Shown here piece after piece: positions 5,894 through 50,840 of a stretch of 64,000 nt of DNA; position 1 is the first letter of the stretch, and each line of letters begins with the position of its first letter. A program made the position numbers and the translations under genes. Below the pieces are notes generated by a model. The model worked only from the letters and a program-made list of their open reading frames with translations. It did not search any database and had not been told where the DNA came from. The stretch covers positions 14,972-78,971 of the forward strand of contig JAMPAC010000003.1 in assembly GCA_023667395.1 (NCBI GenBank). Direction: 5' to 3'. Source of the stretch: Blautia sp. (GTDB taxonomy: Bacteria; Bacillota; Clostridia; Lachnospirales; Lachnospiraceae).

Positions 5894-7270
5894 ATGGCAA
5901 AAAAACCATCATCCGTATTTTTCTGTCAGAACTGCGGCTATGAGTCATCCAAGTGGATGGGGCAGTGCCCGGGGTGCAGGGAATGGAATTCTTTCGTGGA
6001 GGAAACGGTGGCGAAGACGCCCCACATGGGGGTGGCAGCGGCCCCGTCGATGAGGCGGGCGCAGAAGAACGCCCCCAGTATCTTGTCGGAGATCAAAATA
6101 AAGGAGGAGGATAAATTGTCCACCGGCATGGGGGAACTGGACCGGGTTCTGGGCGGGGGGATCGTGCGTGGCTCGCTGACCCTGGTGGGCGGCGATCCCG
6201 GCATCGGCAAATCCACGCTGCTGCTGCAGGTGTGCAGGAACCTTTCTTCCGACGGGCATAAGATCTTATACATATCCGGGGAGGAATCCCTGGCCCAGAT
6301 CAAGATGCGGGCGGACAGGATCGGGGAATTTACCGACAATATGCTGCTTTTGTGCGAGACAAACCTGGACGAGATCGCGGAGGTGATCCGCCAGAGGCAG
6401 CCGGAGGCGGTGGTCATCGACTCCATCCAGACCATGTATAACGAAGCGGTTTCGGCGGCTCCCGGCAGCGTGTCCCAGGTCAGGGAATCCACCGGCATCC
6501 TGCTGCAGCTGGCAAAGGGGTTGGGGGTTTCCGTGATGATAGTGGGGCATGTGACGAAAGAGGGGACCGTGGCGGGTCCCAGGGTGCTGGAGCATATGGT
6601 GGACACCGTGCTCTATTTTGAAGGGGACCGACACGCCTCCTACCGTATCCTGCGGGGGGTGAAGAATCGTTTCGGCTCCACCAATGAGATTGGGGTCTTT
6701 GAGATGCAGGAGCAGGGGCTTGTGGAAGTGCAGAATGCCTCCGAATATATGCTCAACGGCCGGCCCGAGGGAGCCAGCGGGTCGGTGGTGGTATGTACCA
6801 TGGAAGGGACAAGGCCGCTCCTGATCGAGATCCAGGCGCTGGTATGCCACAGTAATTTTGGGATCCCCAGACGGCAGACCACCGGAACGGATTTCAACAG
6901 GGTGAACCTGCTGATGGCTGTGCTGGAAAAGCGTTCCGGCGTGCAGCTGGGAAGCTGCGACGCCTATGTGAACATCACGGGGGGTATGAAAGTGGCGGAA
7001 CCGGCCATCGACCTGGGAATCATCCTGGCCATTCTTTCCAGCTTTAAGAATCAGCCCTTGAATCCGAGACTGATCGCTTTCGGAGAGGTGGGGCTGAGCG
7101 GCGAGGTGCGCGCCGTCAGTCAGGCGGCGCAACGTGTGGCTGAGGCGGAGAAGCTGGGTTTTGATACCTGCATCCTGCCCGCTGTGTGCGCGGAGGACTG
7201 CAGGAAACGCAGTAAGATCAGGATTATCGGGGTGAGAACGGTGCAGGACGCCATGAGCCGGATCTTTTGA
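5894..7270 (+). CDS. radA: DNA repair protein RadA/Sms
   Basis: 458 aa. C4 zinc finger (CQNCGYESSKWMGQCPGC), Walker A GDPGIGKST, KNRFG motif and a Lon-like C-terminal domain. Confidence 0.95.
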   Translation: MAKKPSSVFFCQNCGYESSKWMGQCPGCREWNSFVEETVAKTPHMGVAAAPSMRRAQKNAPSILSEIKIKEEDKLSTGMGELDRVLGGGIVRGSLTLVGGDPGIGKSTLLLQVCRNLSSDGHKILYISGEESLAQIKMRADRIGEFTDNMLLLCETNLDEIAEVIRQRQPEAVVIDSIQTMYNEAVSAAPGSVSQVRESTGILLQLAKGLGVSVMIVGHVTKEGTVAGPRVLEHMVDTVLYFEGDRHASYRILRGVKNRFGSTNEIGVFEMQEQGLVEVQNASEYMLNGRPEGASGSVVVCTMEGTRPLLIEIQALVCHSNFGIPRRQTTGTDFNRVNLLMAVLEKRSGVQLGSCDAYVNITGGMKVAEPAIDLGIILAILSSFKNQPLNPRLIAFGEVGLSGEVRAVSQAAQRVAEAEKLGFDTCILPAVCAEDCRKRSKIRIIGVRTVQDAMSRIF

Positions 7271-9467: not shown

Positions 9468-9680
9468 AATATGATCCTTCCTGTTATGTAAAAGACCGCC
9501 TTGCGAACACAAAGCGGCCTTGGGCATTTTCTTTCGACAGAAACCCATGGATAATCTGCCTACTCCGGTTTGAGGTTATTGCGCAACCCCTACTGAAAAC
9601 TCCGCATGGCAAGGCTTTCCGGTACGCTGCCACGTTTCAACGTTTTGACAGACACACGCCGTTGCCTGTCTGATAATATT

Positions 9681-9709
9681 ATTATATGTATATAATAAAA
9701 TTATGTCAA
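9681..9709 (-). promoter_or_regulatory. Consensus sigma-A promoter for the PBECR4-like gene
   Basis: The minus strand reads TTGACA, a 17-nt spacer, then TATAAT (plus-strand tgtcaa 9704-9709 and attata 9681-9686). This implies a leader of about 200 nt. Confidence 0.65.
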
Positions 9710-39600: not shown

Positions 39601-40468
39601 GGATACCGCGCCTGTGGAGAGCAGGCTCTATCAGGCCGACAGCATTTATATATGTAAACATAAGGTGGCCAGACCTACGGTATTCATCCCCGTCTTCCCG
39701 GGAACCAACTGCGAGTATGACAGTGCGAAAGCCTTTGAGCGCGCGGGAGCCAGCGTGGTGACAAAAGTATTCCGCAACCTCAGCGAGGCGGATATCAGGG
39801 CTTCCGTGGAGGAGTTTGAGAAAGCCATTGCCCAGGCGCAGATCATCATGTTCCCCGGCGGCTTTTCCGCAGGCGACGAGCCCGACGGCAGCGCCAAGTT
39901 CTTCGCCACCGCTTTCCAGAACGAGAAGCTGAAAGAAGCGGTCATGAAGCTGCTGAACGAGAGGGACGGCCTGGCGCTGGGGATCTGCAACGGCTTCCAG
40001 GCGCTGATCAAGCTGGGACTGGCGCCCTGCGGCGAGATTGCGGGACAGAAAGAGGATTCGCCCACGCTGACCTTTAACACCATCAACAGGCACATTTCCA
40101 AAATGGTGTATACAAAGGTGGTCTCCAATAAATCGCCCTGGCTGCAGCAGGCCGGGCTTGGAAAGGTGTACTGCAACCCCGCTTCCCACGGCGAGGGGCG
40201 TTTCGTGGCTCCGAAAGAGTGGCTGGATAAGCTGTTTGCCAACGGACAGGTGGCCACCCAGTACTGCGACCAGGAGGGAAATATCTCCATGGACGAGGAG
40301 TACAATATCAACGGTTCCTACTGTGCCATCGAGGGCATCACGTCCCCTGACGGGCGTTGTCTGGGCAAGATGGCCCACTCCGAGAGACGCGGCGACGCCG
40401 TGGCCATGAATATTTACGGAGAACAGGATATCAGGATATTTGAATCAGGGGTGGCGTACTTCAGATAG
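36671..40468 (+). CDS. purL: Phosphoribosylformylglycinamidine synthase, single-chain large form
   Basis: 1265 aa. HNHPTEIEPFGGAATCLGGAIRD, SESQERM, and a C-terminal GATase (LGICNGFQAL...HGEGRF). Confidence 0.95.
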   Translation: MGNVRRIYVEKKEPFAVKAKELHEELKNYLGIDVKGVREFIRYDVENISDDVFEKACRTVFSEPPVDDLYEESIEVPMDGKVFSVEFLPGQFDQRADSAVQCVQFLKESEEPVIRTAVTYMILGDVTEEEFDRIKAYCINPVDSRETGMDKPDTLITAFEDPADVKILEGFAQMEEKDLLALYDSLSLAMTFKDFLHIQKYFREDEKRDPSMTEIRVLDTYWSDHCRHTTFSTELTDVEFGEGYYRTPMETTYQSYLDTREEIFAGREDKFVCLMDLALMAMRKLKKDGKLADMEESDEINACSVVVPVEMDYGDHRETEEWLVFFKNETHNHPTEIEPFGGAATCLGGAIRDPLSGRGYVYQAMRVTGAADPTVPVADTLKGKLSQKKLVRGAASGYSSYGNQIGLATGFVKEIYHPDYVAKRMEIGAVMGVAPRKNVIRGTSDPGDIIILLGGRTGRDGCGGATGSSKVHTEQSIETCGAEVQKGNAPTERKIQRLFRREEVSRIIKKCNDFGAGGVSVAIGELADGLTVDLDKVPKKYAGLDGTELAISESQERMAVVVGPKDVEKFLGYAAEENLEAVAVAVVTEEPRLILNWRGRTIVNLKRAFLDTNGAHQETAVRVDIPDEKENYFDQYAAPAVGEKLEAGEIKEAWLALLNDLNVCSQKGLVEMFDASIGAGSVFMPYGGKHQLTETQTMVAKLPVLRGKTDTVTMMSHGFDPYLSSWSPYHGAVYAVTESMAKIVASGGDFEKIRFTFQEYFRRMTGDPGRWSQPFAALLGAYDAQMGFGLPSIGGKDSMSGTFNDIDVPPTLVSFAVDIAKQGDIITPELKKAGNKLVRFKIEKDDFDIPMYEDVAELYRFISHLIQEKIVVSAYALDARGTVAALSKMAFGNKLGVQVEDGVSVDTLFENALGDILAEVVPEKLDVLTASEHNVKVIGTVTEAPVFVYGDVKITMEEALASWTSRLEKVFPTRAVRDTAPVESRLYQADSIYICKHKVARPTVFIPVFPGTNCEYDSAKAFERAGASVVTKVFRNLSEADIRASVEEFEKAIAQAQIIMFPGGFSAGDEPDGSAKFFATAFQNEKLKEAVMKLLNERDGLALGICNGFQALIKLGLAPCGEIAGQKEDSPTLTFNTINRHISKMVYTKVVSNKSPWLQQAGLGKVYCNPASHGEGRFVAPKEWLDKLFANGQVATQYCDQEGNISMDEEYNINGSYCAIEGITSPDGRCLGKMAHSERRGDAVAMNIYGEQDIRIFESGVAYFR

Positions 40469-40514
40469 GGGGAACGTATGGACTGAAAAGTCAATTTAAT
40501 ACAGACAGGATAAA

Positions 40515-40549
40515 ATGACAGTTTCCGGTAGGGAAGCTGTCATTTTTTG
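40515..40549 (+). terminator. Rho-independent terminator of purL
   Basis: A 12-bp stem (atgacagtttcc / ggaagctgtcat) with loop ggtag, followed by tttttt. Confidence 0.8.
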
Positions 40550-40573
40550 CGCGCCCGTTCCCGGTGAAATTCC

Positions 40574-40604
40574 TTGACAAAATTTGTCGGGGGGGGGGTA
40601 CAAT
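40574..40604 (+). promoter_or_regulatory. Promoter with a G10 homopolymer in the spacer
   Basis: TTGACA (40574-40579), a 19-nt spacer containing G10 (40589-40598), then TACAAT (40599-40604). AAAGGAGG and ATG 40632 follow. Confidence 0.6.
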
Positions 40605-40631
40605 ATCAGGGGGCAAAGGAGGTAGGTTTTC

Positions 40632-41633
40632 ATGGACTCAACTCAATTATCAACGGAAGTTTTAAGCAGGGACGAATACAGGCAGTATTTGAGAGAAGTG
40701 TGCCATTATGAGAAGAACCTGCTTATGATCAACCTGTCCATAGATCGGTTAAAAGAACAAATGTCCGGTCTGGGCGTCTCCAACCATATCCGGAAACCTG
40801 TGAAAGGAATGCAGGATACCAGGAGCAAGGCGCCATTGGCCCTGCGTACCAGTGTCATCATGGGATTTATTCCTATCGTGATCATCTCGTTTGCCTTAAT
40901 GGTACTTACGCAAATCATAGCGGTGGGCGTGGCTGCCTTTTTTGTGTTACATGTGATATGGTATCTGATTACGTTTAAAATACTGGACTCGGAGAGAAAG
41001 ACAAAAAACAAGGAGATACAGAAGCGGGACGACAAAGAGCAGGCGGACTATGAGGAAGCCCTGCAGGGGGAGAAACGGCGTCTGGAGATCGAAAACCTCC
41101 AGAGACAGTCCCTTGCCTGCGATATCAGCAATTTTGAGATAGACAGGGGTATCTGTTCGCGCACCCTGAGTGATCTGTATGCGTGCAATATCCTGCACCC
41201 GAAGTATCGGAATTTTGCGGCGGCGGCTTCCTTTTACGATTACATTGACACGGGGAGATGCTCTTCCCTGGAGGGACCCAACGGGGCTTATGCCACCTAC
41301 GAGATGGAGAGCAGGATGGATAAGATCATCAGCAAACTGGATCAGGTTCTGGATAAACTGGAACAGATCCGGCAGAATCAGGAGATGCTGTATTCGGAGA
41401 TCAGGGATGCGTACTACCAGTCCAATCTCCTGGCTTCTGAGACCCTGGACGGGATTAACAGGATTGCCCAGAGGACGGATGAGCAGCTGTACCAGCTGGC
41501 GGAGAACCAGCGCCTGATCGAATACAATACGCGGATCTCGGCGGAGAGCGCGGAGACGATGAAGCATGTGATGTTGTACAAGGAGCGTGTGGGAGGCCCG
41601 CTTCCCGTCAGCTATCCAAATTTCGATCGATAA
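40632..41633 (+). CDS. Membrane protein with two TM helices and a long coiled-coil C-terminus
   Basis: 333 aa. TM pair (VIMGFIPIVIISFALMVL.. / ..VGVAAFFVLHVIWYLITFKIL). No family recognised. Confidence 0.6.
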   Translation: MDSTQLSTEVLSRDEYRQYLREVCHYEKNLLMINLSIDRLKEQMSGLGVSNHIRKPVKGMQDTRSKAPLALRTSVIMGFIPIVIISFALMVLTQIIAVGVAAFFVLHVIWYLITFKILDSERKTKNKEIQKRDDKEQADYEEALQGEKRRLEIENLQRQSLACDISNFEIDRGICSRTLSDLYACNILHPKYRNFAAAASFYDYIDTGRCSSLEGPNGAYATYEMESRMDKIISKLDQVLDKLEQIRQNQEMLYSEIRDAYYQSNLLASETLDGINRIAQRTDEQLYQLAENQRLIEYNTRISAESAETMKHVMLYKERVGGPLPVSYPNFDR

Positions 41634-41660
41634 AGACTGCTGCGGGAGGAAAAGTACGGG

Positions 41661-42407
41661 ATGTGCCCTACGGTTACTGTTTTTGGTTTGCCTATATACA
41701 TGTTTTCCCTTTGTTACATATTGGCGGGCGATACGGCGTTTATGGTCTATTATTTCTGTCCCAGATACCGTGATGATATTCTCAGGGATTTCGTGAAAGC
41801 GATCACTTATGGCCTGCTGGTATCCGTTGCAGGGGGAAAACTTTTGTTTGCAGTCACCCAGATACCCCAGGGCAGGAATTTCTGGGACGCCCTGCTGAGA
41901 GGCGGATTTGTGTTCTATGGAGGCCTCATGGGGGGCGCGGTGGGACTGGCGGTTTTCTGCGCGAGATACCGGCAGAATTTTCTGGACTGGGGCGATATTA
42001 TGTGCAGCCTGCTGCCCATGTGCCAGGCCATCGGCAGGATCGGCTGCTTCTGCAATGGATGCTGCTACGGAAAGCCCTATGACGGATTCGGCTCCGTCCT
42101 GTACCCGGTGAACGGGGTGAAGATCGGGGTCTATCCCACCTGGTTCATGGAGTCCCTTGGCTGTGCGGCGCTGTTTTGCTGGCTCTGGAACAGGCGGGGA
42201 CGGAGAATAAGGGGAAGCGTGGCCAGCGGTTACCTGACCGGATACGGCATCCTGCGGTTCTGCATCGAGTTTTTCAGGGGGGACGAACTCCGGGGAGTCT
42301 GGGGGCTTCTTTCCACTTCGCAGATCATCAGCATCATCATGGTGCTGGCGGGGGTGGGAACAGGGATATACGCATGGAAATATAAGGAGCAGAACAGACT
42401 TTGGTGA
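41661..42407 (+). CDS. lgt: Prolipoprotein diacylglyceryl transferase-like protein
   Basis: 248 aa, polytopic. GRIGCFCNGCCYGKP corresponds to the Lgt GR.GNF.N.E..G block and YPTWFMESL to HPTQLYES. Confidence 0.65.
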   Translation: MCPTVTVFGLPIYMFSLCYILAGDTAFMVYYFCPRYRDDILRDFVKAITYGLLVSVAGGKLLFAVTQIPQGRNFWDALLRGGFVFYGGLMGGAVGLAVFCARYRQNFLDWGDIMCSLLPMCQAIGRIGCFCNGCCYGKPYDGFGSVLYPVNGVKIGVYPTWFMESLGCAALFCWLWNRRGRRIRGSVASGYLTGYGILRFCIEFFRGDELRGVWGLLSTSQIISIIMVLAGVGTGIYAWKYKEQNRLW

Positions 42408-42451
42408 CTGCTCTTTATTATAAATAGGACAACGGAGGATGAGGAGGAACT

Positions 42452-43522
42452 ATGAGTAAATTTGAATGTAAGAATTGTGGCTTTATAGTGGAGCAGGCGA
42501 CACAGCCGGGAAGCTGTCCCCTCTGCGGCGGGACTGAATTTACGGCGAGTGGGAGCACGCAGGCCGATGCTGCGGCGAACAGATCCGCCAGGGCGTCTGT
42601 TCCTGTGGGCACTGTGACGGACAGGCCTGTCAGGGAAGCAAATCCTGCGCCCTCCGTCCCGAGAAACAGCTATGTGCAGTTTCGGGAGTTCCCGTCGGTG
42701 CAGAGGGATCGGGTGAAGAAAGAACTGGAAGAAAAGATAAATGCAATCCAGGAGGAGGCGGCAGCGTATATCGGGCGGCAGGAGGCAAAAAACAAGAAGA
42801 AAAACGATAGTGCTTCCGGGGGATTATTTGGATTGGTGTTTGGTCTTGTTGGATTTGTCGGAACTTGCAGCGGATCCTGTTATATTATTGATACACCAGG
42901 ATTTCAAGGTTTTCTCCAGGTACTTTATGCATCCTTGTTTGTTGGGATTGTGCTGGGTGTGGGGATGCTTTTTCTGGGAGACGCCCTTACAGGAGCAAAA
43001 AAGAAAGATTATGAGGTCATAGACATAAAGAATGATTCTGCGGAGGAGGAAAAGAAAAGCAGCCAGGAGGCAGCCCGCAGGAGTATCAGTGAGTATGTGC
43101 AGTCCTTTGACAGGGCGGTAAAGGAGTCCGTGCAGAGATTTATTTCCAGCAAAACCACGGAGGACATTGGAAACCGTATCCTGGAGGGGTTCCTGACCGC
43201 AATCGGGAATGCGCCCAGGGATGCGCGGCGAATGGATATTGTGGTGAAATGCCAGTACTCGGTATATGCCAATCAGGTGCAATATGGGGGTGGGATTTTC
43301 AGCTTTTCACAGAACCACTGTTCCAACCTGGCAGGCCCTGTGGAACAGGCGGCCCTGGGGCAGGCCATAGCCACATACCTGGAGGTACATGTGTTGGAGA
43401 AGTATGACAGGGATCCCTGCGGCTCTGTTCCCCAGATCCTGATCGACAATGAGGATGACGCGGCGTCACGCACCGTTACCGTGACATATAAGGCAGTGAA
43501 CGTATATTACAGGGGAGCATGA
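42452..43522 (+). CDS. Zinc-ribbon membrane protein, paralogue 1
   Basis: 356 aa. N-terminal CKNCG...CPLCGG ribbon, TM helices in the centre. The C-terminal domain is alignable with the 44289 gene (QYSVYANQV/SYSVYTDRI; ALGQAIATYLEVHVLEKY/ALSIAIAAAVKILVMQKY; TVTYKAVN/TMTYTAKN). Confidence 0.65.
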   Translation: MSKFECKNCGFIVEQATQPGSCPLCGGTEFTASGSTQADAAANRSARASVPVGTVTDRPVREANPAPSVPRNSYVQFREFPSVQRDRVKKELEEKINAIQEEAAAYIGRQEAKNKKKNDSASGGLFGLVFGLVGFVGTCSGSCYIIDTPGFQGFLQVLYASLFVGIVLGVGMLFLGDALTGAKKKDYEVIDIKNDSAEEEKKSSQEAARRSISEYVQSFDRAVKESVQRFISSKTTEDIGNRILEGFLTAIGNAPRDARRMDIVVKCQYSVYANQVQYGGGIFSFSQNHCSNLAGPVEQAALGQAIATYLEVHVLEKYDRDPCGSVPQILIDNEDDAASRTVTVTYKAVNVYYRGA

Positions 43523-43556
43523 AGGACGTTCCCTTAGGATGACAGGAGGAAGATAC

Positions 43557-44246
43557 ATGGCAGTGTACATATGTACTATTTGCGGGGAGAAGTATGAATG
43601 TGATGGGAAGCCCAGGGAATGCGCCGTATGCGGAAACACGGATTTCCGGGTGGAGGAGAAGACTGTGCCCACATTCCAGGGCGGGACATCCCGCGAACCG
43701 GACACAGGGGATATCGGGCATCCGCCCGTGAAGCAGGATATGACGCCCCCGCCGGTGCAGGAGAGCCGGGTGCAGACGGACTGGAGGCCTGAACCGGTGA
43801 AAGGGAGTCCGGTGCAGGAGAGCCAGGTGCAGGCGGACTGGAGGCCTGAACCAGTGAAAGAGAATCCGGTGCAGGTGGAATGGAGACCGGAACCGGTGCA
43901 GGAGAGCCAGGTGCAGGCGGAATGGAGTCCGGAACCGGTGAAAGAGAAACAGGTGCAGGCGGAGCGAAGTCCGGAATCGGTTCGTGAAGAACCGGGGGAC
44001 AAGGGCAGAGTGAAAATAGGGGGCGCCCTGTGGGCCGTGATCCTGATCGCGCTGGGCAGCCTGGTACTGTGTTTCAAACGCAGCCTTATCCCTTTTCTAT
44101 ACGGCACATTGGGCATAGGCCGTATTATCCGGGGGGTGTATCCGGAGACCGTTGTCGTATCCATGGGCGTTTTACTGACCGGGTGCGGGATGCTGCTGGC
44201 TGTGATATGGCTGGTCGGTTTGTTGAAGCGTCTGCGGAAAGCGTGA
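43557..44246 (+). CDS. Zinc-ribbon membrane protein, paralogue 2, with internal PVQESQVQA(D/E)W repeats
   Basis: 229 aa from ATG 43557 (AGGAGGA SD). MAVYICTICGEKYECDGKPRECAVCG ribbon, repeat region, C-terminal TM helices. Confidence 0.65.
   Translation: MAVYICTICGEKYECDGKPRECAVCGNTDFRVEEKTVPTFQGGTSREPDTGDIGHPPVKQDMTPPPVQESRVQTDWRPEPVKGSPVQESQVQADWRPEPVKENPVQVEWRPEPVQESQVQAEWSPEPVKEKQVQAERSPESVREEPGDKGRVKIGGALWAVILIALGSLVLCFKRSLIPFLYGTLGIGRIIRGVYPETVVVSMGVLLTGCGMLLAVIWLVGLLKRLRKA
43752..43975 (+). repeat. 57-bp in-frame tandem repeat, about 4 copies with one truncated
   Basis: Units start at 43752, 43809, 43866 (short) and 43893. They encode PVQES(R/Q)VQ(T/A)(D/E)W(R/S)PEPVK(G/E). Confidence 0.85.
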
Positions 44247-44288
44247 GTAGAAACGGCAGGGAATGGATTAAAAACAGGAGGAAGAAGT

Positions 44289-45281
44289 ATGGCAGCGTAC
44301 ATATGTAATATTTGCGGAGAGAAGCATGAATGTGACGAAAGACCTGGGGAATGCGCCGTGTGCGGAGGCGCGGATTTTCGGTTGGAGGGGGAGAGAGTGT
44401 CCCGCAGCGAAACATATCGCGAACCGGATATGGGGGATATTGATCATCTGTTTGCCAGGCATAACATGGCGTTCCCCCCGATGAAAGCGAAGCAGGACAG
44501 GAAAGACCAGCAGAAATTTGAGTCGGACGCGAGGAAGAAAGCTCAGGCAGATTCGGAGGCCATGAAGAAGAATATTCCCAGTTCGGCAGTGGATTTCAGG
44601 TATGCAGTGATCATGTATGTGGCTGGTGTGGTGGAATTGGCGGGCTGGGCATCTTGTGCTTTCACAGTAACGCCCATACCCTGGCTCGTCCTTGCCATAT
44701 CGGCGGGAATTGTATTGTGGGTTAACCAGAAAAGCTATGATAAATATATGAAAAAGGCAAAAGCGGCTGCAGAGCGTGTCCTGACAGACGCGGAAGACGA
44801 TATCGTCAGGTATAACAACGCGCAGGATGCACAGTACAGGGCATACTGTGATGAATTTTTGAGAGCCAGCCAGAAACTCAGCGAGGAGTATGTGGGAACG
44901 GAGTTTGTCATCCGGATCGCCGAGTGGATCTTCCAGCCCTTTGACAGGCAGATCAGCCAGACGAACAGGGAGGAGAGGATTGCGGAGATCAGGGAGGTTT
45001 ATTCCTACAGTGTCTACACGGACAGGATCATTTGCGGCAATGGTACTTACGATTTCAGGGGGCACGGCCTGAGGGATGTGGACGATCCCGTCTGCCAGAC
45101 GGCTCTTTCCATTGCCATCGCGGCGGCTGTGAAGATATTGGTCATGCAGAAATATCCCGTGGATATTTCCGGCACGCCCATAGCCGTTTCTACGGAGGTG
45201 GCCTACCGTGAAAATTATCTTGTGGAGACCATGACTTATACCGCGAAGAACGGAAATTATAATGCGATGAGCGTCTGGTAA
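44289..45281 (+). CDS. Zinc-ribbon membrane protein, paralogue 3
   Basis: 330 aa. MAAYICNICGEKHECDERPGECAVCG is nearly identical to the ribbon of paralogue 2. TM helices and a C-terminal domain shared with paralogue 1. Confidence 0.65.
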   Translation: MAAYICNICGEKHECDERPGECAVCGGADFRLEGERVSRSETYREPDMGDIDHLFARHNMAFPPMKAKQDRKDQQKFESDARKKAQADSEAMKKNIPSSAVDFRYAVIMYVAGVVELAGWASCAFTVTPIPWLVLAISAGIVLWVNQKSYDKYMKKAKAAAERVLTDAEDDIVRYNNAQDAQYRAYCDEFLRASQKLSEEYVGTEFVIRIAEWIFQPFDRQISQTNREERIAEIREVYSYSVYTDRIICGNGTYDFRGHGLRDVDDPVCQTALSIAIAAAVKILVMQKYPVDISGTPIAVSTEVAYRENYLVETMTYTAKNGNYNAMSVW

Positions 45282-45288
45282 CAGCGCG

Positions 45289-45400
45289 TAAAGATTTTCT
45301 AAGTCAGTAAAGTACACTGACTAAGAAAATCTACGGTTCCGCTTTGCGGAACCTATACGCGCGGAAGAATCGCAGGTTGTTTCGCAGGGAACCGGGTGTT
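45289..45400. repeat. Dispersed repeat family B, copy 1
   Basis: aaagattttctaag-(stem)-aaagtac-(stem)-ctaagaaaatcta, then acggttccgctttgcggaacctatacgcgcggaagaatcgc. It matches the copies at 49344 and 55176. Confidence 0.8.
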
Positions 45401-45430
45401 TGAACCATTAAAGATGGACAGGGAGTCAGT

Positions 45431-48400
45431 ATGAAGAAGATAGAAACGATTTACACGGAAATTTATGACAGGTTGAGAGAACTTGCGGAGGCAAGGGAGG
45501 AAGCGGAGAGGCAGCTGCAGGAGGTTTCGGTCAGGAACAGGCAGCTGTTCCAGGAACTGGATGAGAGGATAAACGCGGATCTGCAGGGCATTACCGAGAA
45601 GATGAGCCGGGTCAACGTATTCATCAATTTTGCCAGGGAGCATACTTCCGTCTGCGAGATGGCGTCAGGGGCCATTGCCTATGATACCACCGAACTGAAC
45701 CGTCTGATGGTCTTGGTGGAGCATTCGGCCACGGACGATATGAATGCCCGCAGGCTTTTCACGGTGGCGACCGGGCAGTTGAAGACCCTTGTGGCACAGA
45801 AAGCGTCGCTGCAGAATGCGGGGGATCAGGAGAAACAGAGCCTGCGTGCGCGCGTGATGCCTGACAGGCAGGCGGCGGTGGAGAGGAAAGACGCAGCCGT
45901 GGAGGCTTTCCGGGCTTATTTCCAGAGCCCCCAGTGCCAGGATTCCCTGAGCATGCTCAAGGAACAGACCGTACCGGAGCAGACGCTGAGCATGGGACTG
46001 CGCCGGGCGGATTTCCCCGTGCCCGAGGAACTGACGGAAGTGGCGGCGGAGACGCTGGGAGATTTATGGGACAGGAACACGCAGAGCATTTCCATACCGG
46101 TGACCATTGGCGTGGAGGAAGGAAATGTCTGTGTGGCGGAGTATACCAACCAGACGGAGAACGAGGTGCTGTCCGGTATCCGGGACATCCTGCTGAAAGG
46201 GATCGGCTTCACCGGGGGAGAGCCCCAGTACATCTGTGTGTTTGACCCCGTGCGTTATAATGATTCCGCGCTGGGGACGCTGGAGCCCCTGGCGCTGGGG
46301 GAGAGCCGCCTTATCGACAGGGTGCCCACATCCAAGGAGGAATTACAGCGGAAGCTGGACGATATCATCAATAAAGGCAACCTGGAGGATCAGCTGGCGG
46401 CCAGGAATGAAAAATATGAGCGGGCCGTGAAATTTTATGTATTCCACAATTTTCCCCAGGGCTACGACGCGTCCATGCAGACCAAGGTGCGCCAGCTGTG
46501 CGTTAATGCGCCCCATGGCAGGATGAACATTTTCCTGACCCACAACTGCTCGGAGGACGAGAACAGGTTCATGGCCCAGAACGAGACCTATAATTATCTG
46601 AGGGAATTTGGCAGGATCATCACTGTCGCAGGGAACGAATACAGCACGGACTGGGATAAGAACGGCAATCAGGCCCCGTTCTGGTGGAACCAGGCGCCCT
46701 CCAGGATGCCGGAGGATCTGCTGGAGAGGGCAAGACAGAAAAAGGAACAGAAGAACCAAGGCAAAAATGATTATGACGCCCAGGTAGGGATACAGGAAAT
46801 GCCCGCATACCGCAAGGGCGTTCGGCGGCTTACCGACATCCCCTACGGCGTGGACGAGAGCGGGCAGCTCCTGACGCTTGACTTTGAGAACAGTAATTTT
46901 GCCACATTCATATGCGGCGCGGCGCGTTCGGGAAAGTCAACGCTCCTGCATACCATTTTGACCGGCATTTTCCAGCAGAATCATCCTGACGACGTGGAGG
47001 TATGGCTGATCGATTTTAAGATGACGGAATTTTCCCGTTATATCGGACACCTGCCGCCCCATGTAAGGTATATCATCCTGGATGAGTCGCCGGAACTGGT
47101 GTATGACATTATCGACCGTCTGACGGAGATCCTACAGAAACGACAGAGTATTTTTAAGGGAATGTGGCAGAAGCTGTACGACGTCCCTGAAGAAAAGTAT
47201 ATGCCTGCCATGTTCATCGTCATCGACGAGTTTTCCATTATGAGCCAGATCATTGCGGATTCCGCCACAAGCGGGGAAAATTACAGCGAAAAGCTGCAGG
47301 CGCTCCTGGCCAAGGGCGCGGCGCTGGGGATGCACTTCATCTTTGCCAGCCAGGGCTTTACCAGCGGTACCAGGGGACTGAACGATTTCTCCAAGAAGCA
47401 GATCCAGCAGCGGATCGCCATGAAGACGGAACTGGCGGAGATCAAGGCCACCCTTGACCTGCTCAATGCAAGCGAACAGGATTACGCCATGATGGAACAG
47501 CTGCCCGTCCACAAGACGCTGACCCGCATGCCTGTGGATGAATACGGCAATCATCTGTGCTTGGCGGACGTCCTGTATATTTCCGATTATAAGAAGCAGG
47601 AACACCTGATCGATACGATCAATGCGAATATGCAGCAGAAGCCAAGGTACGACGTGGGGGATATTCCCGCGTACATATACAAGCAGCCCATGATCATTGA
47701 CGGCAACAGTTATCACCCTTTTTCCGATAAGAAAGATAAGATGATGGAGTATCTGGAGAAAAGGAAGCCCCTGCTCCGGTCGGAGGGGCTGTGGGACATT
47801 TTCTGGGGCGAGCCCAGACGCATGATGCACGTCTTCCCGGCGCAGATTGCGGACAGTTACGGGGAAAATGTTTTCATGCTTGCCCCCATCCATGAGAAAG
47901 AGGCGGCTTTGAGCGTCCTGCTTTCCATGAAACAGTCCCTTGACATGCAGGGCAGGTTCGTGCAGCTCTGGACCACCAGGAAGCACGGCATGTATCAGCA
48001 GCTGGTGGGCGACTGCGGCTGGTCTTCCGTGAAGCGTCTGGATCTGGAGCAGGTCTGCCAGGCCATCGCAGACTGCAGGAAGAAGATCGAGGACAAGAAG
48101 CCGGGCAATACCTTTTTCATTCTTCTGGGCTTTGAATCCCTGATGATGGATATGAGTTTCCAGGAGAGGAAAGCGGCTCCGGGACAGATGCAGACACAGA
48201 CGCAGGCACAGCCGCTGAAAGATTTCAGCAGTATGTTCCAGCCTGCGGGCGCACCACGGGCAGGCGGACTTGATCTTCTGAGCCAGATGAACATGAAAGG
48301 GCAGGGCGGAAGCGCCGCTGTCGCAGGAGGGCAGACAGACGTGACAGCCGGGGTACAGGACGAAAGCCGTTTTGCAGTCGCAGGGATGCAGCCGGGCGAA

Positions 48401-48892
48401 ACAGCTGGGGTACAGGGCGGAAATGTCTTTGCCGCAAATGTGCAGTCGGGCGGAATGACAGGAGCGCAGGCAGGCGCAGGTATGCCGTCGGGTGCAGGCG
48501 CGGCGAAACAGTCTGCCGATGAACCGGAATCACCCCTGTATGACGCGAGGGAGGATCTGAAATATATCCTGACCCAGGGTCCCAGGCTGGGCTACCATTT
48601 CCTGATGGTGTTCCACACCATGGGCGAGTTCAAGCAGATGAAGATTGCGGCCGGGCTGTTCAAGCATAAGGTCATGTTCCGTGCGCCCAAGGCGGACGTA
48701 TTCGAAATGGTGGGAGCCCAGGGGAAAGACGTGGCAGCCCTGGGAGACCATTCTTTCCGCTATACCAACGGGCTGGACAGCTTGAGTTTCCGGCCATTCC
48801 TCCATGCAGGCCTGTCCCTGGACGGATGGAAAGTCAATGAGGACGGATCCGTGGCGGAAGAAGTGCTGGAAGAGGAAAATTATTTATTATAA
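45431..48892 (+). CDS. TM-less FtsK/SpoIIIE-family ATPase with three EssC-like modules, only the middle one intact
   Basis: 1153 aa. N-terminal coiled coil. The middle module has Walker A GAARSGKST and Walker B MFIVIDEF. The flanking modules lack P-loops. A Q/G/A-rich insertion of about 130 aa lies in the last module. No TM helix. Confidence 0.8.
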   Translation: MKKIETIYTEIYDRLRELAEAREEAERQLQEVSVRNRQLFQELDERINADLQGITEKMSRVNVFINFAREHTSVCEMASGAIAYDTTELNRLMVLVEHSATDDMNARRLFTVATGQLKTLVAQKASLQNAGDQEKQSLRARVMPDRQAAVERKDAAVEAFRAYFQSPQCQDSLSMLKEQTVPEQTLSMGLRRADFPVPEELTEVAAETLGDLWDRNTQSISIPVTIGVEEGNVCVAEYTNQTENEVLSGIRDILLKGIGFTGGEPQYICVFDPVRYNDSALGTLEPLALGESRLIDRVPTSKEELQRKLDDIINKGNLEDQLAARNEKYERAVKFYVFHNFPQGYDASMQTKVRQLCVNAPHGRMNIFLTHNCSEDENRFMAQNETYNYLREFGRIITVAGNEYSTDWDKNGNQAPFWWNQAPSRMPEDLLERARQKKEQKNQGKNDYDAQVGIQEMPAYRKGVRRLTDIPYGVDESGQLLTLDFENSNFATFICGAARSGKSTLLHTILTGIFQQNHPDDVEVWLIDFKMTEFSRYIGHLPPHVRYIILDESPELVYDIIDRLTEILQKRQSIFKGMWQKLYDVPEEKYMPAMFIVIDEFSIMSQIIADSATSGENYSEKLQALLAKGAALGMHFIFASQGFTSGTRGLNDFSKKQIQQRIAMKTELAEIKATLDLLNASEQDYAMMEQLPVHKTLTRMPVDEYGNHLCLADVLYISDYKKQEHLIDTINANMQQKPRYDVGDIPAYIYKQPMIIDGNSYHPFSDKKDKMMEYLEKRKPLLRSEGLWDIFWGEPRRMMHVFPAQIADSYGENVFMLAPIHEKEAALSVLLSMKQSLDMQGRFVQLWTTRKHGMYQQLVGDCGWSSVKRLDLEQVCQAIADCRKKIEDKKPGNTFFILLGFESLMMDMSFQERKAAPGQMQTQTQAQPLKDFSSMFQPAGAPRAGGLDLLSQMNMKGQGGSAAVAGGQTDVTAGVQDESRFAVAGMQPGETAGVQGGNVFAANVQSGGMTGAQAGAGMPSGAGAAKQSADEPESPLYDAREDLKYILTQGPRLGYHFLMVFHTMGEFKQMKIAAGLFKHKVMFRAPKADVFEMVGAQGKDVAALGDHSFRYTNGLDSLSFRPFLHAGLSLDGWKVNEDGSVAEEVLEEENYLL

Positions 48893-49050
48893 AAACAGTC
48901 TCGGAACGGCAAATGCAATGTGCCCAAAGGCACATGAAAGAAATTTCCAGCTGCGGTGTGTGCAGATGAAAATTTCTTTCAGGACAAGGGCATTGAAGTG
49001 AAGAGAGCGGAATAAGTTCCTGCAAGCAGGAACTGGAATAGAAATAGGAG
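48890..49050 (+). repeat. Dispersed repeat family A, copy 2
   Basis: It starts on the ATPase stop codon and ends ...gttcctgcaagcaggaactggaatagaaataggag, which supplies the SD for ATG 49061. Confidence 0.85.
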
Positions 49051-49060
49051 GTATGATTGT

Positions 49061-49339
49061 ATGAGCGATGAAAACAGGTTTCTGGAAGTTGAATCCCTGC
49101 AGACTCTGATCAATGCGGTGAGTAACTATCTGGAGGAACTGGGGGTGAGTTACAATTTTCTGGCGGAGGCCGCCAATGTCTGCCAGATGGCCATGGGAAG
49201 CGACGAGATCGCCATGAAACAGATCAACCGGATGTATGAGGCGCTGGAAGGACTCCGCGTGGCGGCGCTCACGGCGCAGGAAGTAGCGCAGGATATGCAG
49301 ACAAGCCTTATGCAGGCGGAGGCAATCAGAAACATGTGA
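49061..49339 (+). CDS. Small helical-hairpin protein, WXG100-sized with no Trp in the turn
   Basis: 92 aa with two predicted helices. The turn MAMGSDE sits at the position where a WXG motif would be. Confidence 0.55.
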   Translation: MSDENRFLEVESLQTLINAVSNYLEELGVSYNFLAEAANVCQMAMGSDEIAMKQINRMYEALEGLRVAALTAQEVAQDMQTSLMQAEAIRNM

Positions 49340-49343
49340 CAAG

Positions 49344-49450
49344 TGTGCAAAGATTTTCTAAGCCCGCAAAGTACGCGGACTAAGAAAATCTAAGTTGCAC
49401 ACAGAAGAATGCCAAGAGCAGGCATTCTTCTCGGAACCGAATGGTTCCGT
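49344..49450. repeat. Dispersed repeat family B, copy 2
   Basis: tgtgcaaagattttctaagcccgcaaagtacgcggactaagaaaatctaagttgcaca, then hairpins agaagaatgcc/ggcattcttct and cggaacc/ggttccg. Confidence 0.8.
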
Positions 49451-49538
49451 GGGATTGGTTTGTGCCGCCGGAGGCGGCATGTTTGGAAGTGCGGGAGAAG
49501 TTCCCGTCCGGAGTTGGGATTACAGGAGGTAAAGAGGG

Positions 49539-49841
49539 ATGAAATTATCTTTGAATCAGGAATCCGCAGACGCATTGAGGGTTCTGGCGGATCAGATGCC
49601 CCGTGCCATCGAGCAGATCGAAGACGCCACGGAGAGGCTGATGGCTGTGTACGCCCAGGTGGAAGGAACCCTGGGGGTGCATGAACCACATTTCGCCGAT
49701 ATGCTGAACCGGCTGAGGAATGCACAGATGATGGCGCAGACCCCGGTGCTGGCGCTGCCAATGAAACTGAATGAGGTGGCAAATGCCATTGAGGATTATA
49801 TCAGGACCAACCCGGATTCGGGCAGTTATCTGGGAAACTGA
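49539..49841 (+). CDS. Small helical protein, zero-frame product of a possible frameshift gene
   Basis: 100 aa with AGGAGG SD. It ends ...L G N * with the heptamer G_GGA_AAC in phase, immediately before TGA. Confidence 0.6.
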   Translation: MKLSLNQESADALRVLADQMPRAIEQIEDATERLMAVYAQVEGTLGVHEPHFADMLNRLRNAQMMAQTPVLALPMKLNEVANAIEDYIRTNPDSGSYLGN

Positions 49842-49957
49842 CAGACCCGTCTTCCGGGTATTCCGGAAGCGCGCCGGGAGGCGGGGGCGGTACAGGCACA
49901 GAGGATGTCAAGAAGCTGGCGCCCAAGCGGGATATCAATTCCGCGAGGCAGTCAGCC

Positions 49958-50149
49958 ATGGAGAGCATCGAGGCTCGGATGGAAGTAAAAAGGGACGACC
50001 TGCGCGACAAGGGAATGGCGGACGGAGAGCAAATGGAGCGCATCATCGCCATGGAGAAGGAAGCGGCCATCGAGCGCATGGAACAGGACCTGAAAGGTGA
50101 GACTGAGCCGAATACATGGGATGACCGGCACTTTAAGGTGAAAAGATAG
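49958..50149 (+). CDS. 63-aa charged helical ORF, either independent or the -1-frame extension of the 49539 gene
   Basis: The -1 frame is open from 49793 to 50149. ATG 49958 has a weak GAGG 9 nt upstream. Confidence 0.4.
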   Translation: MESIEARMEVKRDDLRDKGMADGEQMERIIAMEKEAAIERMEQDLKGETEPNTWDDRHFKVKR

Positions 50150-50169
50150 GAAAAGGTGAAAAAAAAGAT

Positions 50170-50682
50170 ATGAAGAACGATATGAAGAAACTGATCATGG
50201 CAGTCATGACAATGGCAATGATGATAAGCCTGGCGGCATGCGGCGATGGTTCCATGGAGCTGTCTGACAAAAAATACCAGGAAGTCCTGAACATTATGGG
50301 AATCGACGGAGTAGAGGAGGCAGTGGATAACGTGGTGCTGGAGAGTATCCTGTATGACAGTATACCGTCCGAGGACTATCGTGATGCAGACGATAATGAC
50401 TCTGTGTGGAAAGCTGCATCGGAACTCTGCGGCGAACAGAAAGATAATTACTATTACAGCTGCTGCGGCCTGGGCACGAATCAGGAACAGGCGGAGGCAA
50501 TGCGGAAGGAATATAAGGATTATCTGCAGATGCAGGGCTATGAATACAGGGAAACGAACGCCAACTTTGGCGATATTTATGTAAAGGGCAATTGTGCGGT
50601 CATTCTCCAGGAAGTCAGGGGTCCCGTACACTGGAGCGATAAGACCGAGGGACAGTATGGGCTGGTCACCTGGTTCTATTGA
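50170..50682 (+). CDS. Lipoprotein
   Basis: 170 aa. Signal peptide with lipobox (MISLAAC-GDG). Confidence 0.75.
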   Translation: MKNDMKKLIMAVMTMAMMISLAACGDGSMELSDKKYQEVLNIMGIDGVEEAVDNVVLESILYDSIPSEDYRDADDNDSVWKAASELCGEQKDNYYYSCCGLGTNQEQAEAMRKEYKDYLQMQGYEYRETNANFGDIYVKGNCAVILQEVRGPVHWSDKTEGQYGLVTWFY

Positions 50683-50840
50683 CCGGCAATAACCGGCTGA
50701 TACCTGAACATTTTTAACGCAATCATTTCGCGAAACTTGCAAAAGGCGGACAGATACGTTATAATGAATGTGCAAGGTTTGAGGCCGGTTTGTTCATGAT
50801 GTGGGAGAGTAGGTCTCAAAGAAAGAAAGGGGAGGTTATT

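What the first reader, a model, noticed from the sequence alone, without database searches (positions are those of the whole stretch)
40574..40604. G10 homopolymer inside the -35/-10 spacer: candidate phase-variable promoter
Seen: TTGACA and TACAAT are separated by 19 nt, and 10 of those nt are a run of G (40589-40598). The promoter lies right after the purL terminator and 27 nt before a strong SD and ATG 40632. Established: homopolymer or dinucleotide tracts in promoter spacers cause slipped-strand phase variation by changing the spacer length (Neisseria, Haemophilus and Mycoplasma examples), and the optimal spacer is 17 nt. Inference: the present 19-nt state would be weak or OFF, and loss of 1-2 G would turn on the downstream 10-kb cluster. 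A G10 tract is otherwise unexpected in this genome context.
Basis: partly seen in the sequence, partly recalled or inferred. Interest (0 to 1): 0.7.

Follow-up and report, generated by a model that had tools for sequence, protein, structure and literature searches.

The report
Poly-G promoter switch on secretion island
A run of ten G's sits between the two halves of a textbook promoter that drives a horizontally acquired, type VII-like secretion gene island in a gut Lachnospiraceae bacterium. Related islands keep the same uninterrupted run with nine or ten G's, so it is most likely a slippage-driven on/off (phase-variation) switch of a known kind in a group where such switches are barely described.

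Summary
In detail: TTGACA (40574-79), a 19-nt spacer ending in G10 (40589-98), TACAAT (40599-604), GGAGG, then ATG at 40632.

This is the only G/C run of 8 or more in the 64 kb, and the only perfect -35/-10 pair on the + strand.

The promoter is not part of the purL locus. It lies at the left end of a ~10.35-kb island (40469-50823) that is absent from two close Lachnospiraceae relatives. The island encodes an EssC/EccC-like ATPase, an Lgt paralog, three Zn-ribbon membrane proteins, small helical proteins and a lipoprotein.

Four related islands (69-75% identical first protein, ~37% third-codon divergence, different insertion sites) keep identical hexamers and an uninterrupted G run of 10, 10, 9 and 10. 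One lineage has lost both the run and the -10. More distant orthologs have ordinary promoters without any G run; the one measured has a 17-nt spacer.

The same architecture elsewhere is hypermutable. A Faecalibacterium lipoprotein promoter varies from G6 to G12 within identical flanking haplotypes.

Verdict: a probable spacer-length phase-variable promoter of the porA/TP0126 type, and a new member of a known kind. Switching within a strain and the ON/OFF assignment remain untested.

The parts
40469..50823 (+). Inserted genomic island (~10.35 kb) between purL and the HDOD-domain gene
   Evidence: Two close Lachnospiraceae relatives (L138, L139; CarA 93% identical) have purL followed 48 nt later by the HDOD gene. 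Homology to the window stops at 40467 and resumes at 50824.
40512..40549 (+). Island-borne intrinsic-terminator-like hairpin plus T-run. It would insulate the island from purL read-through.
   Evidence: 15-bp stem, centroid -21.1 kcal/mol, z = -4.77 (I14). Absent from relatives that lack the island.
40574..40579 (+). -35 hexamer TTGACA (consensus)
   Evidence: Invariant in the window, L001, L002/3, L004 and L005.
40580..40598 (+). 19-nt spacer (AAATTTGTC + G10)
   Evidence: The non-G part varies at 5 of 9 positions between lineages, while the G run is never interrupted in four lineages.
40589..40598 (+). G10 homopolymer abutting the -10; the proposed slippage tract
   Evidence: Orthologous tracts are G10 (L001), G9 (L002/L003) and G10 (L004).
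40599..40604 (+). -10 hexamer TACAAT
   Evidence: Conserved in four lineages; mutated to GACGAT in L005-7, where the G run has also decayed.
40610..40614 (+). Inferred transcription start region (G5 run about 6-10 nt after the -10); not mapped
   Evidence: Inference from promoter geometry. A G4-5 run is present here in all five lineages.
40618..40622 (+). Shine-Dalgarno GGAGG, 9 nt before the ATG
40632..41633 (+). First island gene: 333-aa coiled-coil/membrane protein, no Pfam family
   Evidence: Relatives occur only in gut/rumen Clostridia assemblies.
41661..42407 (+). Lgt (prolipoprotein diacylglyceryl transferase) paralog
   Evidence: PF01790, E = 1e-40; below the NCBIfam equivalog cut-offs.
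42452..45281 (+). Three paralogous N-terminal Zn-ribbon (RCKP rubredoxin-like) membrane proteins (42452-43522, 43539-44246, 44289-45281)
45431..48892 (+). FtsK/SpoIIIE ATPase most similar to the T7SS ATPases EccC/EssC
   Evidence: PF01580. TIGR03924/03925/03928 hits, all below cut-off. Best PDB sequence hits are 4nh0/4n1a (deposited only as 'Cell division FtsK/SpoIIIE'), followed by EccCb1 and EccC; that 4nh0/4n1a and 4lya are EccC/EssC chains is from my memory.
49061..49841 (+). Two small helical proteins (49061-49339, 49539-49841); the second is WXG100/EsxB-like by predicted fold (weak)
   Evidence: top Foldseek hits EsxB/EsxA, prob 0.9-0.96, TM about 0.5-0.6, E about 0.35. The first protein gave no meaningful match.
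50170..50682 (+). Last island gene: 170-aa lipoprotein (signal peptide plus LAAC lipobox)
   Evidence: translation. It precedes the right-hand end of the island.

Best explanation
The element is the sigma-A-type promoter of a horizontally acquired T7SS-like secretion island, with a hypermutable G tract built into its -35/-10 spacer.

Proposed mechanism: slipped-strand mispairing during replication adds or removes a G. This changes the spacer between consensus hexamers (G8 = 17 nt, G9 = 18, G10 = 19). Transcription of at least the first five tightly packed island genes, and probably the EssC-like ATPase and the genes after it, is thereby switched stochastically and reversibly between high and low/off. 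The sequenced state (19 nt) is inferred to be low/OFF. An island-borne terminator just upstream makes the island depend on this promoter.

Shown here: the anatomy, the island borders, conservation and purity of the tract with a G9/G10 difference between lineages, and hypervariability of the same design in another Clostridia genus.

Inferred: the switching rate in this organism, the transcription start, and which length is ON.
For: - Consensus hexamers, G10, SD and ATG are exactly as described. It is the only G/C run of 8 or more in the window and in ~70 kb of related loci outside the homologous tracts.
- Orthologous islands in different contexts keep TTGACA, TACAAT and an uninterrupted G run of 10/9/10. 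Their third-codon identity is only ~0.63, and the non-G spacer varies at 5 of 9 positions. This points to selection on tract purity plus length change.
- In L005-7 the run is broken and the -10 is mutated together.
- The 57%- and 44%-identical orthologs (L008, L009) have no G run. In L008 an ordinary promoter with a 17-nt spacer and a TG-extended -10 is evident. So a promoter at this place is ancestral and the tract is a derived add-on.
- The island inserted between purL and the HDOD gene and brought its own terminator.
- A metagenome scan for TTGACAAA-N7-G6+...TACAAT hit the 120-locus limit, with runs mostly G9-G12 abutting the -10 (96 of 125). In the largest family (Faecalibacterium), identical 95-nt flanking haplotypes carry G6/7/9/10/11/12.
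- Precedent: the poly-G between -35 and -10 of T. pallidum tp0126, and of N. meningitidis porA, gives optimal transcription at a 17-nt spacer (PMC7864442; PMC3899988).
Against: - No within-strain or within-sample length data could be obtained. The window's own proteins are not on record, and the exact-flank metagenome scan found nothing.
- Only two lengths (9, 10) are seen in four lineages, and three of four share G10. That would also fit a length under direct constraint.
- Most sampled states, here and in Faecalibacterium, have spacers of 19 or 15 nt rather than 17. So either OFF predominates or the 17-nt rule does not transfer.
- The transcription start is unmapped.
- Hairpins after 45281, 48892 and 49339 may limit how far the transcript runs.
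- The mismatch-repair status and slippage rate of this organism are unknown.
Confidence: 0.6

Rival explanations
1. The G run is a fixed functional part of a non-switching promoter. For example, it could supply G at -14/-15 next to the -10, or stiffen or shorten the spacer, so that 19 nt is the working geometry. The G9/G10 difference would then be slow evolutionary drift rather than rapid phase variation.
For: - Three of four lineages share G10 and a 19-nt spacer.
- A 19-nt spacer is also the commonest state in the Faecalibacterium family and among single-copy hits.
- The run always abuts the -10 in this family.
Against: - A contact at -14/-15 does not need 9-10 G's.
- The same design varies over 6-12 G within identical haplotypes elsewhere.
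- Experimental precedents with G-run spacers have their optimum at 17 nt.
- Orthologs without the run do without it; the one measured (L008) has a normal 17-nt spacer.
Confidence: 0.2
2. This is an activator-dependent promoter of the MerR type. The over-long 19-nt spacer would be deliberate and would be untwisted by a regulator bound in or near the spacer. The GACAAA-N-TTTGTC dyad overlapping the -35 would be the operator.
For: - The 19-nt spacer is the MerR-family signature (my own knowledge).
- A perfect 6-1-6 dyad is present at 40576-40588 in the window, and the same dyad occurs in L001.
Against: - The dyad is not conserved in L002 or L004, which keep the G run.
- It is not centred in the spacer.
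- No MerR-family or other regulator gene is found in the island. The nearest regulator is a TetR gene upstream of purL, outside the island.
Confidence: 0.07
3. The run is a neutral leftover or chance run with no effect, or transcription of the island comes from elsewhere.
For: - Dinucleotide shuffles give G9 runs at about the observed rate.
- There are no expression data.
Against: - The empirical run-length decay predicts 0.09 runs of 10 or more.
- The run stays uninterrupted across lineages with ~37% synonymous-site divergence.
- It is placed exactly between consensus hexamers.
- An upstream terminator blocks read-through.
Confidence: 0.05
4. The run is a sequencing or assembly artefact at a homopolymer.
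For: Homopolymers are error-prone in some technologies.
Against: The same tract is recovered in independent assemblies from four other sequencing projects.
Confidence: 0.02

Closest known systems
Treponema pallidum tp0126 (OmpW homolog) promoter; also the tprE/G/J and tprL poly-G promoters
   Same: - A poly-G tract lies between the -35 and -10 of a sigma-70-type promoter.
- Tract length varies within isolates, and transcription is optimal when the spacer is 17 nt (PMC7864442, citing Giacani 2015).
- The targets are surface or secreted functions.
- My scan also recovered gut Treponema lipoprotein promoters of this design.
   Different: - The phylum differs (Spirochaetes vs Clostridia).
- The target there is a single outer-membrane protein gene, whereas here it is a multigene secretion island that carries the switch with it.
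- No experimental length or expression data exist here.
Neisseria meningitidis porA promoter poly-G
   Same: A G run sits in the -35/-10 spacer, and gain or loss of one G changes transcription through spacer length (PMC3899988; PMC7864442 discussion).
   Different: - It is a Gram-negative pathogen with many contingency loci.
- The reported states shorten the spacer from 17 nt, whereas here the observed states are longer than the optimum (18-19).
Haemophilus influenzae hifA/hifB TA-repeat promoter; Mycoplasma poly-A spacer promoters
   Same: A simple-sequence repeat in the spacer changes the -35/-10 distance (PMC3899988; the Mycoplasma case is from my own knowledge).
   Different: The repeat there is a dinucleotide or poly-A rather than poly-G, and the hif promoter is bidirectional.
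Group B Streptococcus T7SSb homopolymer variation
   Same: A type VII-like secretion locus is subject to slippage at homopolymeric tracts (PMC9900821).
   Different: There the G tract lies inside essC, giving a translational frameshift. Here it lies in the promoter spacer, and the secretion system itself is far more divergent.
MerR-family regulated promoters
   Same: The spacer is 19 nt between good hexamers.
   Different: There is no conserved dyad operator in the spacer and no cognate regulator gene. The spacer is a homopolymer.

Membership tests
Spacer-length SSR phase-variable promoter (porA / TP0126 type) | Homopolymer or short repeat long enough to slip (about 8 or more G/C) | tested here: met
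   G10 at 40589-40598.
Spacer-length SSR phase-variable promoter (porA / TP0126 type) | The repeat lies between recognisable -35 and -10 hexamers of the promoter that serves the downstream gene | tested here: met
   Consensus TTGACA and TACAAT are conserved in orthologs, followed by SD and ATG, with a terminator upstream. This is sequence-level only; the start site is not mapped.
Spacer-length SSR phase-variable promoter (porA / TP0126 type) | Tract length varies between and within populations faster than the flanks change | tested here: inconclusive
   Between lineages the lengths are G10/G10/G9/G10 with a pure tract. Two samples of one lineage (L002/L003) both have G9. No read-level data. 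The analogous Faecalibacterium promoter varies G6-G12 within identical haplotypes.
Spacer-length SSR phase-variable promoter (porA / TP0126 type) | Expression changes with repeat number | not testable with these tools
   Needs reporter fusions or RNA measurements.
Spacer-length SSR phase-variable promoter (porA / TP0126 type) | The target is a surface, secreted or host/competitor-interaction function | tested here: met
   The island encodes an EssC/EccC-like ATPase, an Lgt paralog, membrane Zn-ribbon proteins, a lipoprotein and an EsxB-like small protein.
MerR-type activated promoter | Dyad operator within a 19-20-nt spacer, conserved with the promoter | tested here: not met
   The dyad GACAAA-N-TTTGTC overlaps the -35, is off-centre, and is absent in L002 and L004.
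MerR-type activated promoter | Cognate MerR-family regulator gene adjacent | tested here: not met
   No HTH regulator is found among the island proteins.
Type VII secretion system (T7SSb/ESX), for the regulated island | EssC/EccC FtsK-SpoIIIE ATPase | tested here: inconclusive
   The best hits are EccC/EssC models and structures, but far below the NCBIfam cut-offs (81 vs 509 bits), and only one clear P-loop domain is seen.
Type VII secretion system (T7SSb/ESX), for the regulated island | WXG100-family substrates | tested here: inconclusive
   There is no Pfam WXG100 hit. The single-sequence model of the 100-aa protein (pLDDT 72) matches EsxB/EsxA best, but with E about 0.35.
Type VII secretion system (T7SSb/ESX), for the regulated island | Core membrane components EsaA/EssA/EssB (or EccB/D/E) | tested here: not met
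   None was detected. The island instead has an Lgt paralog, Zn-ribbon membrane proteins and a 333-aa protein without a family.

The most novel reading that the evidence does not exclude
Poly-G tracts in promoter spacers form a widespread and so far essentially undescribed class of contingency loci in gut Clostridia (Lachnospiraceae, Faecalibacterium and others). In this case the switch travels with a mobile, highly divergent T7SS-like secretion island, so the island arrives in a new host already phase-variable.
Probability: 0.4. Interest if true: 0.72.

Novelty: new member of a known kind. Interest (0 to 1): 0.55.

Why it matters
Phase variation in gut commensals is known mainly from invertible promoters in Bacteroidales and Clostridioides. 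In the searchable literature I found nothing on simple-repeat promoter switches in Lachnospiraceae or Faecalibacterium.

If the tract switches, three things follow:
- A secretion island likely used in interactions between bacteria or with the host would be expressed in only part of the population. That matters for strain competition, for immune recognition, and for interpreting metatranscriptomes.
- Homopolymer length at such sites would be a hidden variable in metagenome-assembled genomes.
- The simple pattern used here retrieves more than 120 similar promoters. This offers a cheap way to catalogue contingency loci in uncultured gut Firmicutes and spirochaetes.

Tried and rejected
- **Exact-flank metagenome scan** allowing any tract length: 0 hits.
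- **Exact-protein look-ups** of the window's 333-aa, Lgt and TetR proteins: not on record. No same-species strains could therefore be compared.
- **Genome-contig scans:** with the single protein, nothing. With the family alignment, only 27-43% relatives, and none has a homopolymer run in the locus (G/C 8 or more, A/T 10 or more).
- **Control scans of viral contigs** for poly-G vs poly-C versions of the pattern: 0 vs 1 hit, uninformative.
- **Dinucleotide-shuffle test** of the G run: not significant. I replaced it with the empirical run-length distribution.
- **Single-strand folding** of the promoter region: no structure beyond chance (z = -0.1). A hairpin or quadruplex-type explanation was therefore not pursued.
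- **Alternative -35 hexamers** that would give a 17- or 18-nt spacer in the G10 state: GACAAA and TGACAA match only 2 of 6 positions (by eye).
- **PADLOC:** no defence-system assignment for the island.
- **Terminal repeats** at the island ends: none found.
- **Fold search** of the 92-aa protein: meaningless matches.
- **Enrichment of signal-peptide/lipoprotein genes** downstream of G8-or-longer promoters: 14 of 31 vs 41 of 148 crude control ORFs, Fisher p = 0.085. The 14 is the script's 13 plus one Faecalibacterium family that I re-scored by hand. Suggestive only, and not used as evidence.
- **Rfam:** nothing near the site.

Full report
**1. The observation**

The sequence reads ...CCTTGACAAAATTTGTCGGGGGGGGGGTACAATATCAGGGGGCAAAGGAGGTAGGTTTTCATG. 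The coordinates are:
- TTGACA at 40574-40579.
- TACAAT at 40599-40604.
- A 19-nt spacer whose last ten bases are G (40589-40598).
- GGAGG at 40618-40622.
- ATG at 40632, which opens a 333-aa ORF.

The built-in promoter scan does not list the site because it only allows spacers of 16-18 nt.

A strong hairpin with a T-run lies at 40512-40549 (z = -4.8), after the purL stop at 40468.

**2. Is it more than chance?**

- A dinucleotide-shuffle test is not impressive. The + strand is 31% G, and shuffles give G9 matches at about the observed rate.
- Real runs in this DNA decay about 4-fold per added base. The longest other G/C run is G7, and extrapolation predicts 0.09 runs of 10 or more per window.
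- This is the only perfect TTGACA-N15-21-TAYAAT pair on the + strand. There is one other on the - strand, and 0.06 are expected in total.
- The chance of a G10 inside a given 19-nt spacer is about 8e-5.
- Conservation (section 5) settles the matter.

**3. Where it sits**

The organism is a Lachnospiraceae. Its CarA is 93% identical to MAGs labelled Lachnospiraceae bacterium and Eubacterium sp., and about 89% identical to one labelled Acetatifactor sp..

In two of these close relatives (GCA_023664345.1 and GCA_023666305.1; L138, L139) the gene order is TetR-purL-HDOD-carA-carB, with only 48 nt between purL and the HDOD gene. Homology to the window ends at 40467 and resumes at 50824.

So window 40469-50823 is a ~10.35-kb insertion. 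The hairpin terminator, the G10 promoter and nine or more + strand genes all belong to it. No terminal repeats were found.

**4. What the island encodes**

- A 333-aa coiled-coil/membrane protein without a family.
- An Lgt paralog (PF01790).
- Three paralogous Zn-ribbon (RCKP rubredoxin-like) membrane proteins.
- A 1153-aa FtsK/SpoIIIE ATPase. Its best family hits are the T7SS ATPases EccC/EssC, far below the curated cut-offs. Its best PDB sequence hits are 4nh0 and 4n1a (deposited only as 'Cell division FtsK/SpoIIIE'), then EccCb1 and EccC.
- Two small helical proteins. The single-sequence model of one (pLDDT 72) matches EsxB/EsxA best, but weakly.
- A lipoprotein.

 PADLOC gives no defence assignment. 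I call the island T7SS-like, not a T7SS: the canonical membrane components are missing.

The first five genes are separated by 16-44 nt. After 45281, 48892 and 49339 there are 150-200-nt gaps containing hairpins. Control of the first five genes by this promoter is therefore a safe inference. Control of the rest is probable but open.

**5. Comparative evidence at the locus itself**

The 333-aa protein has few relatives, all from assemblies of sequencing runs. I looked at the regions upstream of them:

| Locus | Protein identity | Context | Promoter |
|---|---|---|---|
| L001 | 75% | different from window | TTGACA-AATTTTGTC-G10-TACAAT |
| L002/L003 | 73% | different; two samples | TTGACA-AATTCCGTT-G9-TACAAT (18 nt) |
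| L004 | 69% | also after purL | TTGACA-AATTTCACC-G10-TACAAT |
| L005-7 | 69% | next to a resolvase gene | TTGACA-AATTTTGTTTATGT-G6-ACGAT: run broken, -10 mutated |
| L008 | 57% | - | ordinary TTGTTG-17-TATAAT with TG extension, no run |
| L009 | 44% | - | no G run |

Distant relatives in reference genomes (27-43% identity) have no homopolymer runs in the locus.

Homology between the islands begins only about 10-30 nt upstream of the -35. The promoter is therefore the island's left edge and moves with it.

The lineages are only ~63% identical at third codon positions, and the non-G spacer differs at 5 of 9 positions. Yet the 9-10 G's are never interrupted in four lineages. With per-lineage divergence of about 0.2, the chance of that under neutrality is of the order of 1e-4 (my estimate). 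So the run is under selection as a pure run, it changes in length, and it decays together with the -10 when the promoter is lost. That is the signature expected of a contingency tract. A directly functional G run would also be conserved, so this does not prove switching.

**6. The same design elsewhere**

A metagenome scan for CTTGACAAA-N7-G6-N0-8-TACAAT hit its 120-locus limit. None of the hits is this island.

The variable part of the pattern is almost always more G's. The run abuts the -10 in 96 of 125 sites, and runs are mostly G9-G12, the opposite of what the steep run-length decay predicts.

- **Largest family.** It has 29 sites on 28 contigs and precedes a 180-183-aa lipoprotein gene. 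Its neighbouring genes fall in clusters named Faecalibacterium prausnitzii / Faecalibacterium sp.. Within identical 95-nt flanking haplotypes the run is 7,7,9,9,11, or 7,11,11,11,12, or 6,7,7,12. Length therefore changes faster than point substitutions. This is direct evidence that such tracts are hypermutable in a Clostridia gut commensal.
- **Another large group** belongs to uncultured gut Treponema lipoproteins, in line with the T. pallidum precedent.
- **Downstream genes.** Many encode lipoproteins, large signal-peptide proteins or prepilin-like proteins. My crude enrichment test is only suggestive (p = 0.085).

**7. Mechanism and direction of the switch**

Published cases with a G run in the spacer have their optimum at 17 nt. 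These are T. pallidum tp0126 (PMC7864442) and N. meningitidis porA (PMC7864442 and PMC3899988).

By that rule G8 would be ON, G9 intermediate and G10 low/OFF. No alternative -35 rescues the G10 state: GACAAA and TGACAA match 2 of 6 positions.

One caution. The commonest states here (19 nt in three of four lineages) and in Faecalibacterium (19 and 15 nt) are not 17 nt. Either OFF states predominate in nature, as in many contingency loci, or G-run spacers have a different working length in these bacteria. This is the main rival (fixed geometry).

A MerR-type reading (19-nt spacer plus the GACAAA-N-TTTGTC dyad at 40576-40588) fails on two counts. The dyad is not conserved, and there is no regulator gene. 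The promoter DNA has no unusual single-strand structure.

**8. Comparison with what is known, and novelty**

By mechanism this belongs to the porA/TP0126 kind of spacer-length, repeat-driven phase variation. The anatomy and target-type criteria are met. Population-level length variation is only partly met. Dependence of expression on length is untestable here.

Literature searches found no description of simple-repeat promoter switches in Lachnospiraceae, Faecalibacterium or other commensal Clostridia. Reviews cite inversions for Clostridioides and Bacteroidales. For T7SS, homopolymer slippage is reported inside essC of group B Streptococcus, not in a promoter.

I therefore rate it a new member of a known kind. 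Its added interest is that the switch is carried by a mobile, divergent secretion island, and that the design appears common in gut metagenomes.

**9. Verdict**

- Observation: confirmed.
- Interpretation: partly supported.
- Confidence that this is the island's promoter: about 0.85.
- Confidence that it is a working phase-variation switch: about 0.6.
- Interest: 0.55.

Noticed in passing
L013, L030, L036, L054, L086 and 23 more loci (e.g. L054:3793-3825, L086:6009-6040 and 6932-6963): A Faecalibacterium lipoprotein promoter, TTGACA-AATATATA-Gn-TACAAT, shows n = 6-12 across human-gut metagenomes, including within identical 95-nt flanking haplotypes. G11 (19-nt spacer) and G7 (15 nt) are the commonest states. 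An upstream A6/A7 run also varies. I found no description of this in the searchable literature.
   Followed up: partly
L014, L015, L019, L034, L035 etc. (e.g. L015:2652-2679): Lipoprotein genes of uncultured gut Treponema sit behind TTGACA-AATCCC-G9-TACAAT. The spacer is only 15-16 nt and is almost invariant at G9 over about 20 contigs. This resembles the T. pallidum poly-G promoters, but the tract length appears fixed.
   Followed up: partly
window 45283-45333 and 49342-49392: A ~51-nt element (84% identical copies) containing a 17-bp palindromic hairpin (AGATTTTCTAAG...CTTAGAAAATCT) occurs twice in the island. One copy precedes the ATPase gene and one follows the 92-aa gene. It could be an RNA processing, stability or attenuation element.
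   Followed up: no
window 43752-43976: Tandem 42-nt (14-aa, PVQESQVQADWRPE-like) coding repeats lie in the 235-aa Zn-ribbon membrane protein. This is a second potentially length-variable feature of the island.
   Followed up: no
window 50159-50166: An A8 run lies between the Shine-Dalgarno (AAGGTG) and the ATG (50170) of the island's lipoprotein gene. It is the longest A run in the window and could alter SD-to-start spacing by slippage.
   Followed up: no
window 49771-50149: After the stop of the 100-aa gene (49841), plausible coding sequence continues in another frame up to 50149 (…EDVKKLAPKRD…HFKVKR). This could be a frameshift, a separate small gene, or a sequencing error near a G5 run.
   Followed up: no
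L005:829-1116 and upstream (also L006, L007): This variant of the island lies next to a serine-recombinase (Resolvase) gene. A 95-aa ORF overlaps the start of the 333-aa gene, and here the G run and the -10 have decayed. The island may be mobilised by, or read through from, that module.
   Followed up: no
window 40576-40588: A perfect 6-1-6 dyad, GACAAA-A-TTTGTC, overlaps the -35. It is shared with L001 but not with L002 or L004.
   Followed up: yes
window 9519-9645 (-) and 9681-9709 (-): A drum RNA (RF02958, 81.6 bits) is present. The only other perfect TTGACA-17-TATAAT pair in the window lies about 36 nt upstream of it on the same strand, and is probably its promoter.
   Followed up: no
window 40469-50823 vs L004:1-3271: A second lineage (L004) carries a 69%-identical island at the same purL 3' end, whereas two closer relatives (L138, L139) have an empty site. 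The cause is either repeated insertion at this site or ancestral presence followed by loss.
   Followed up: partly
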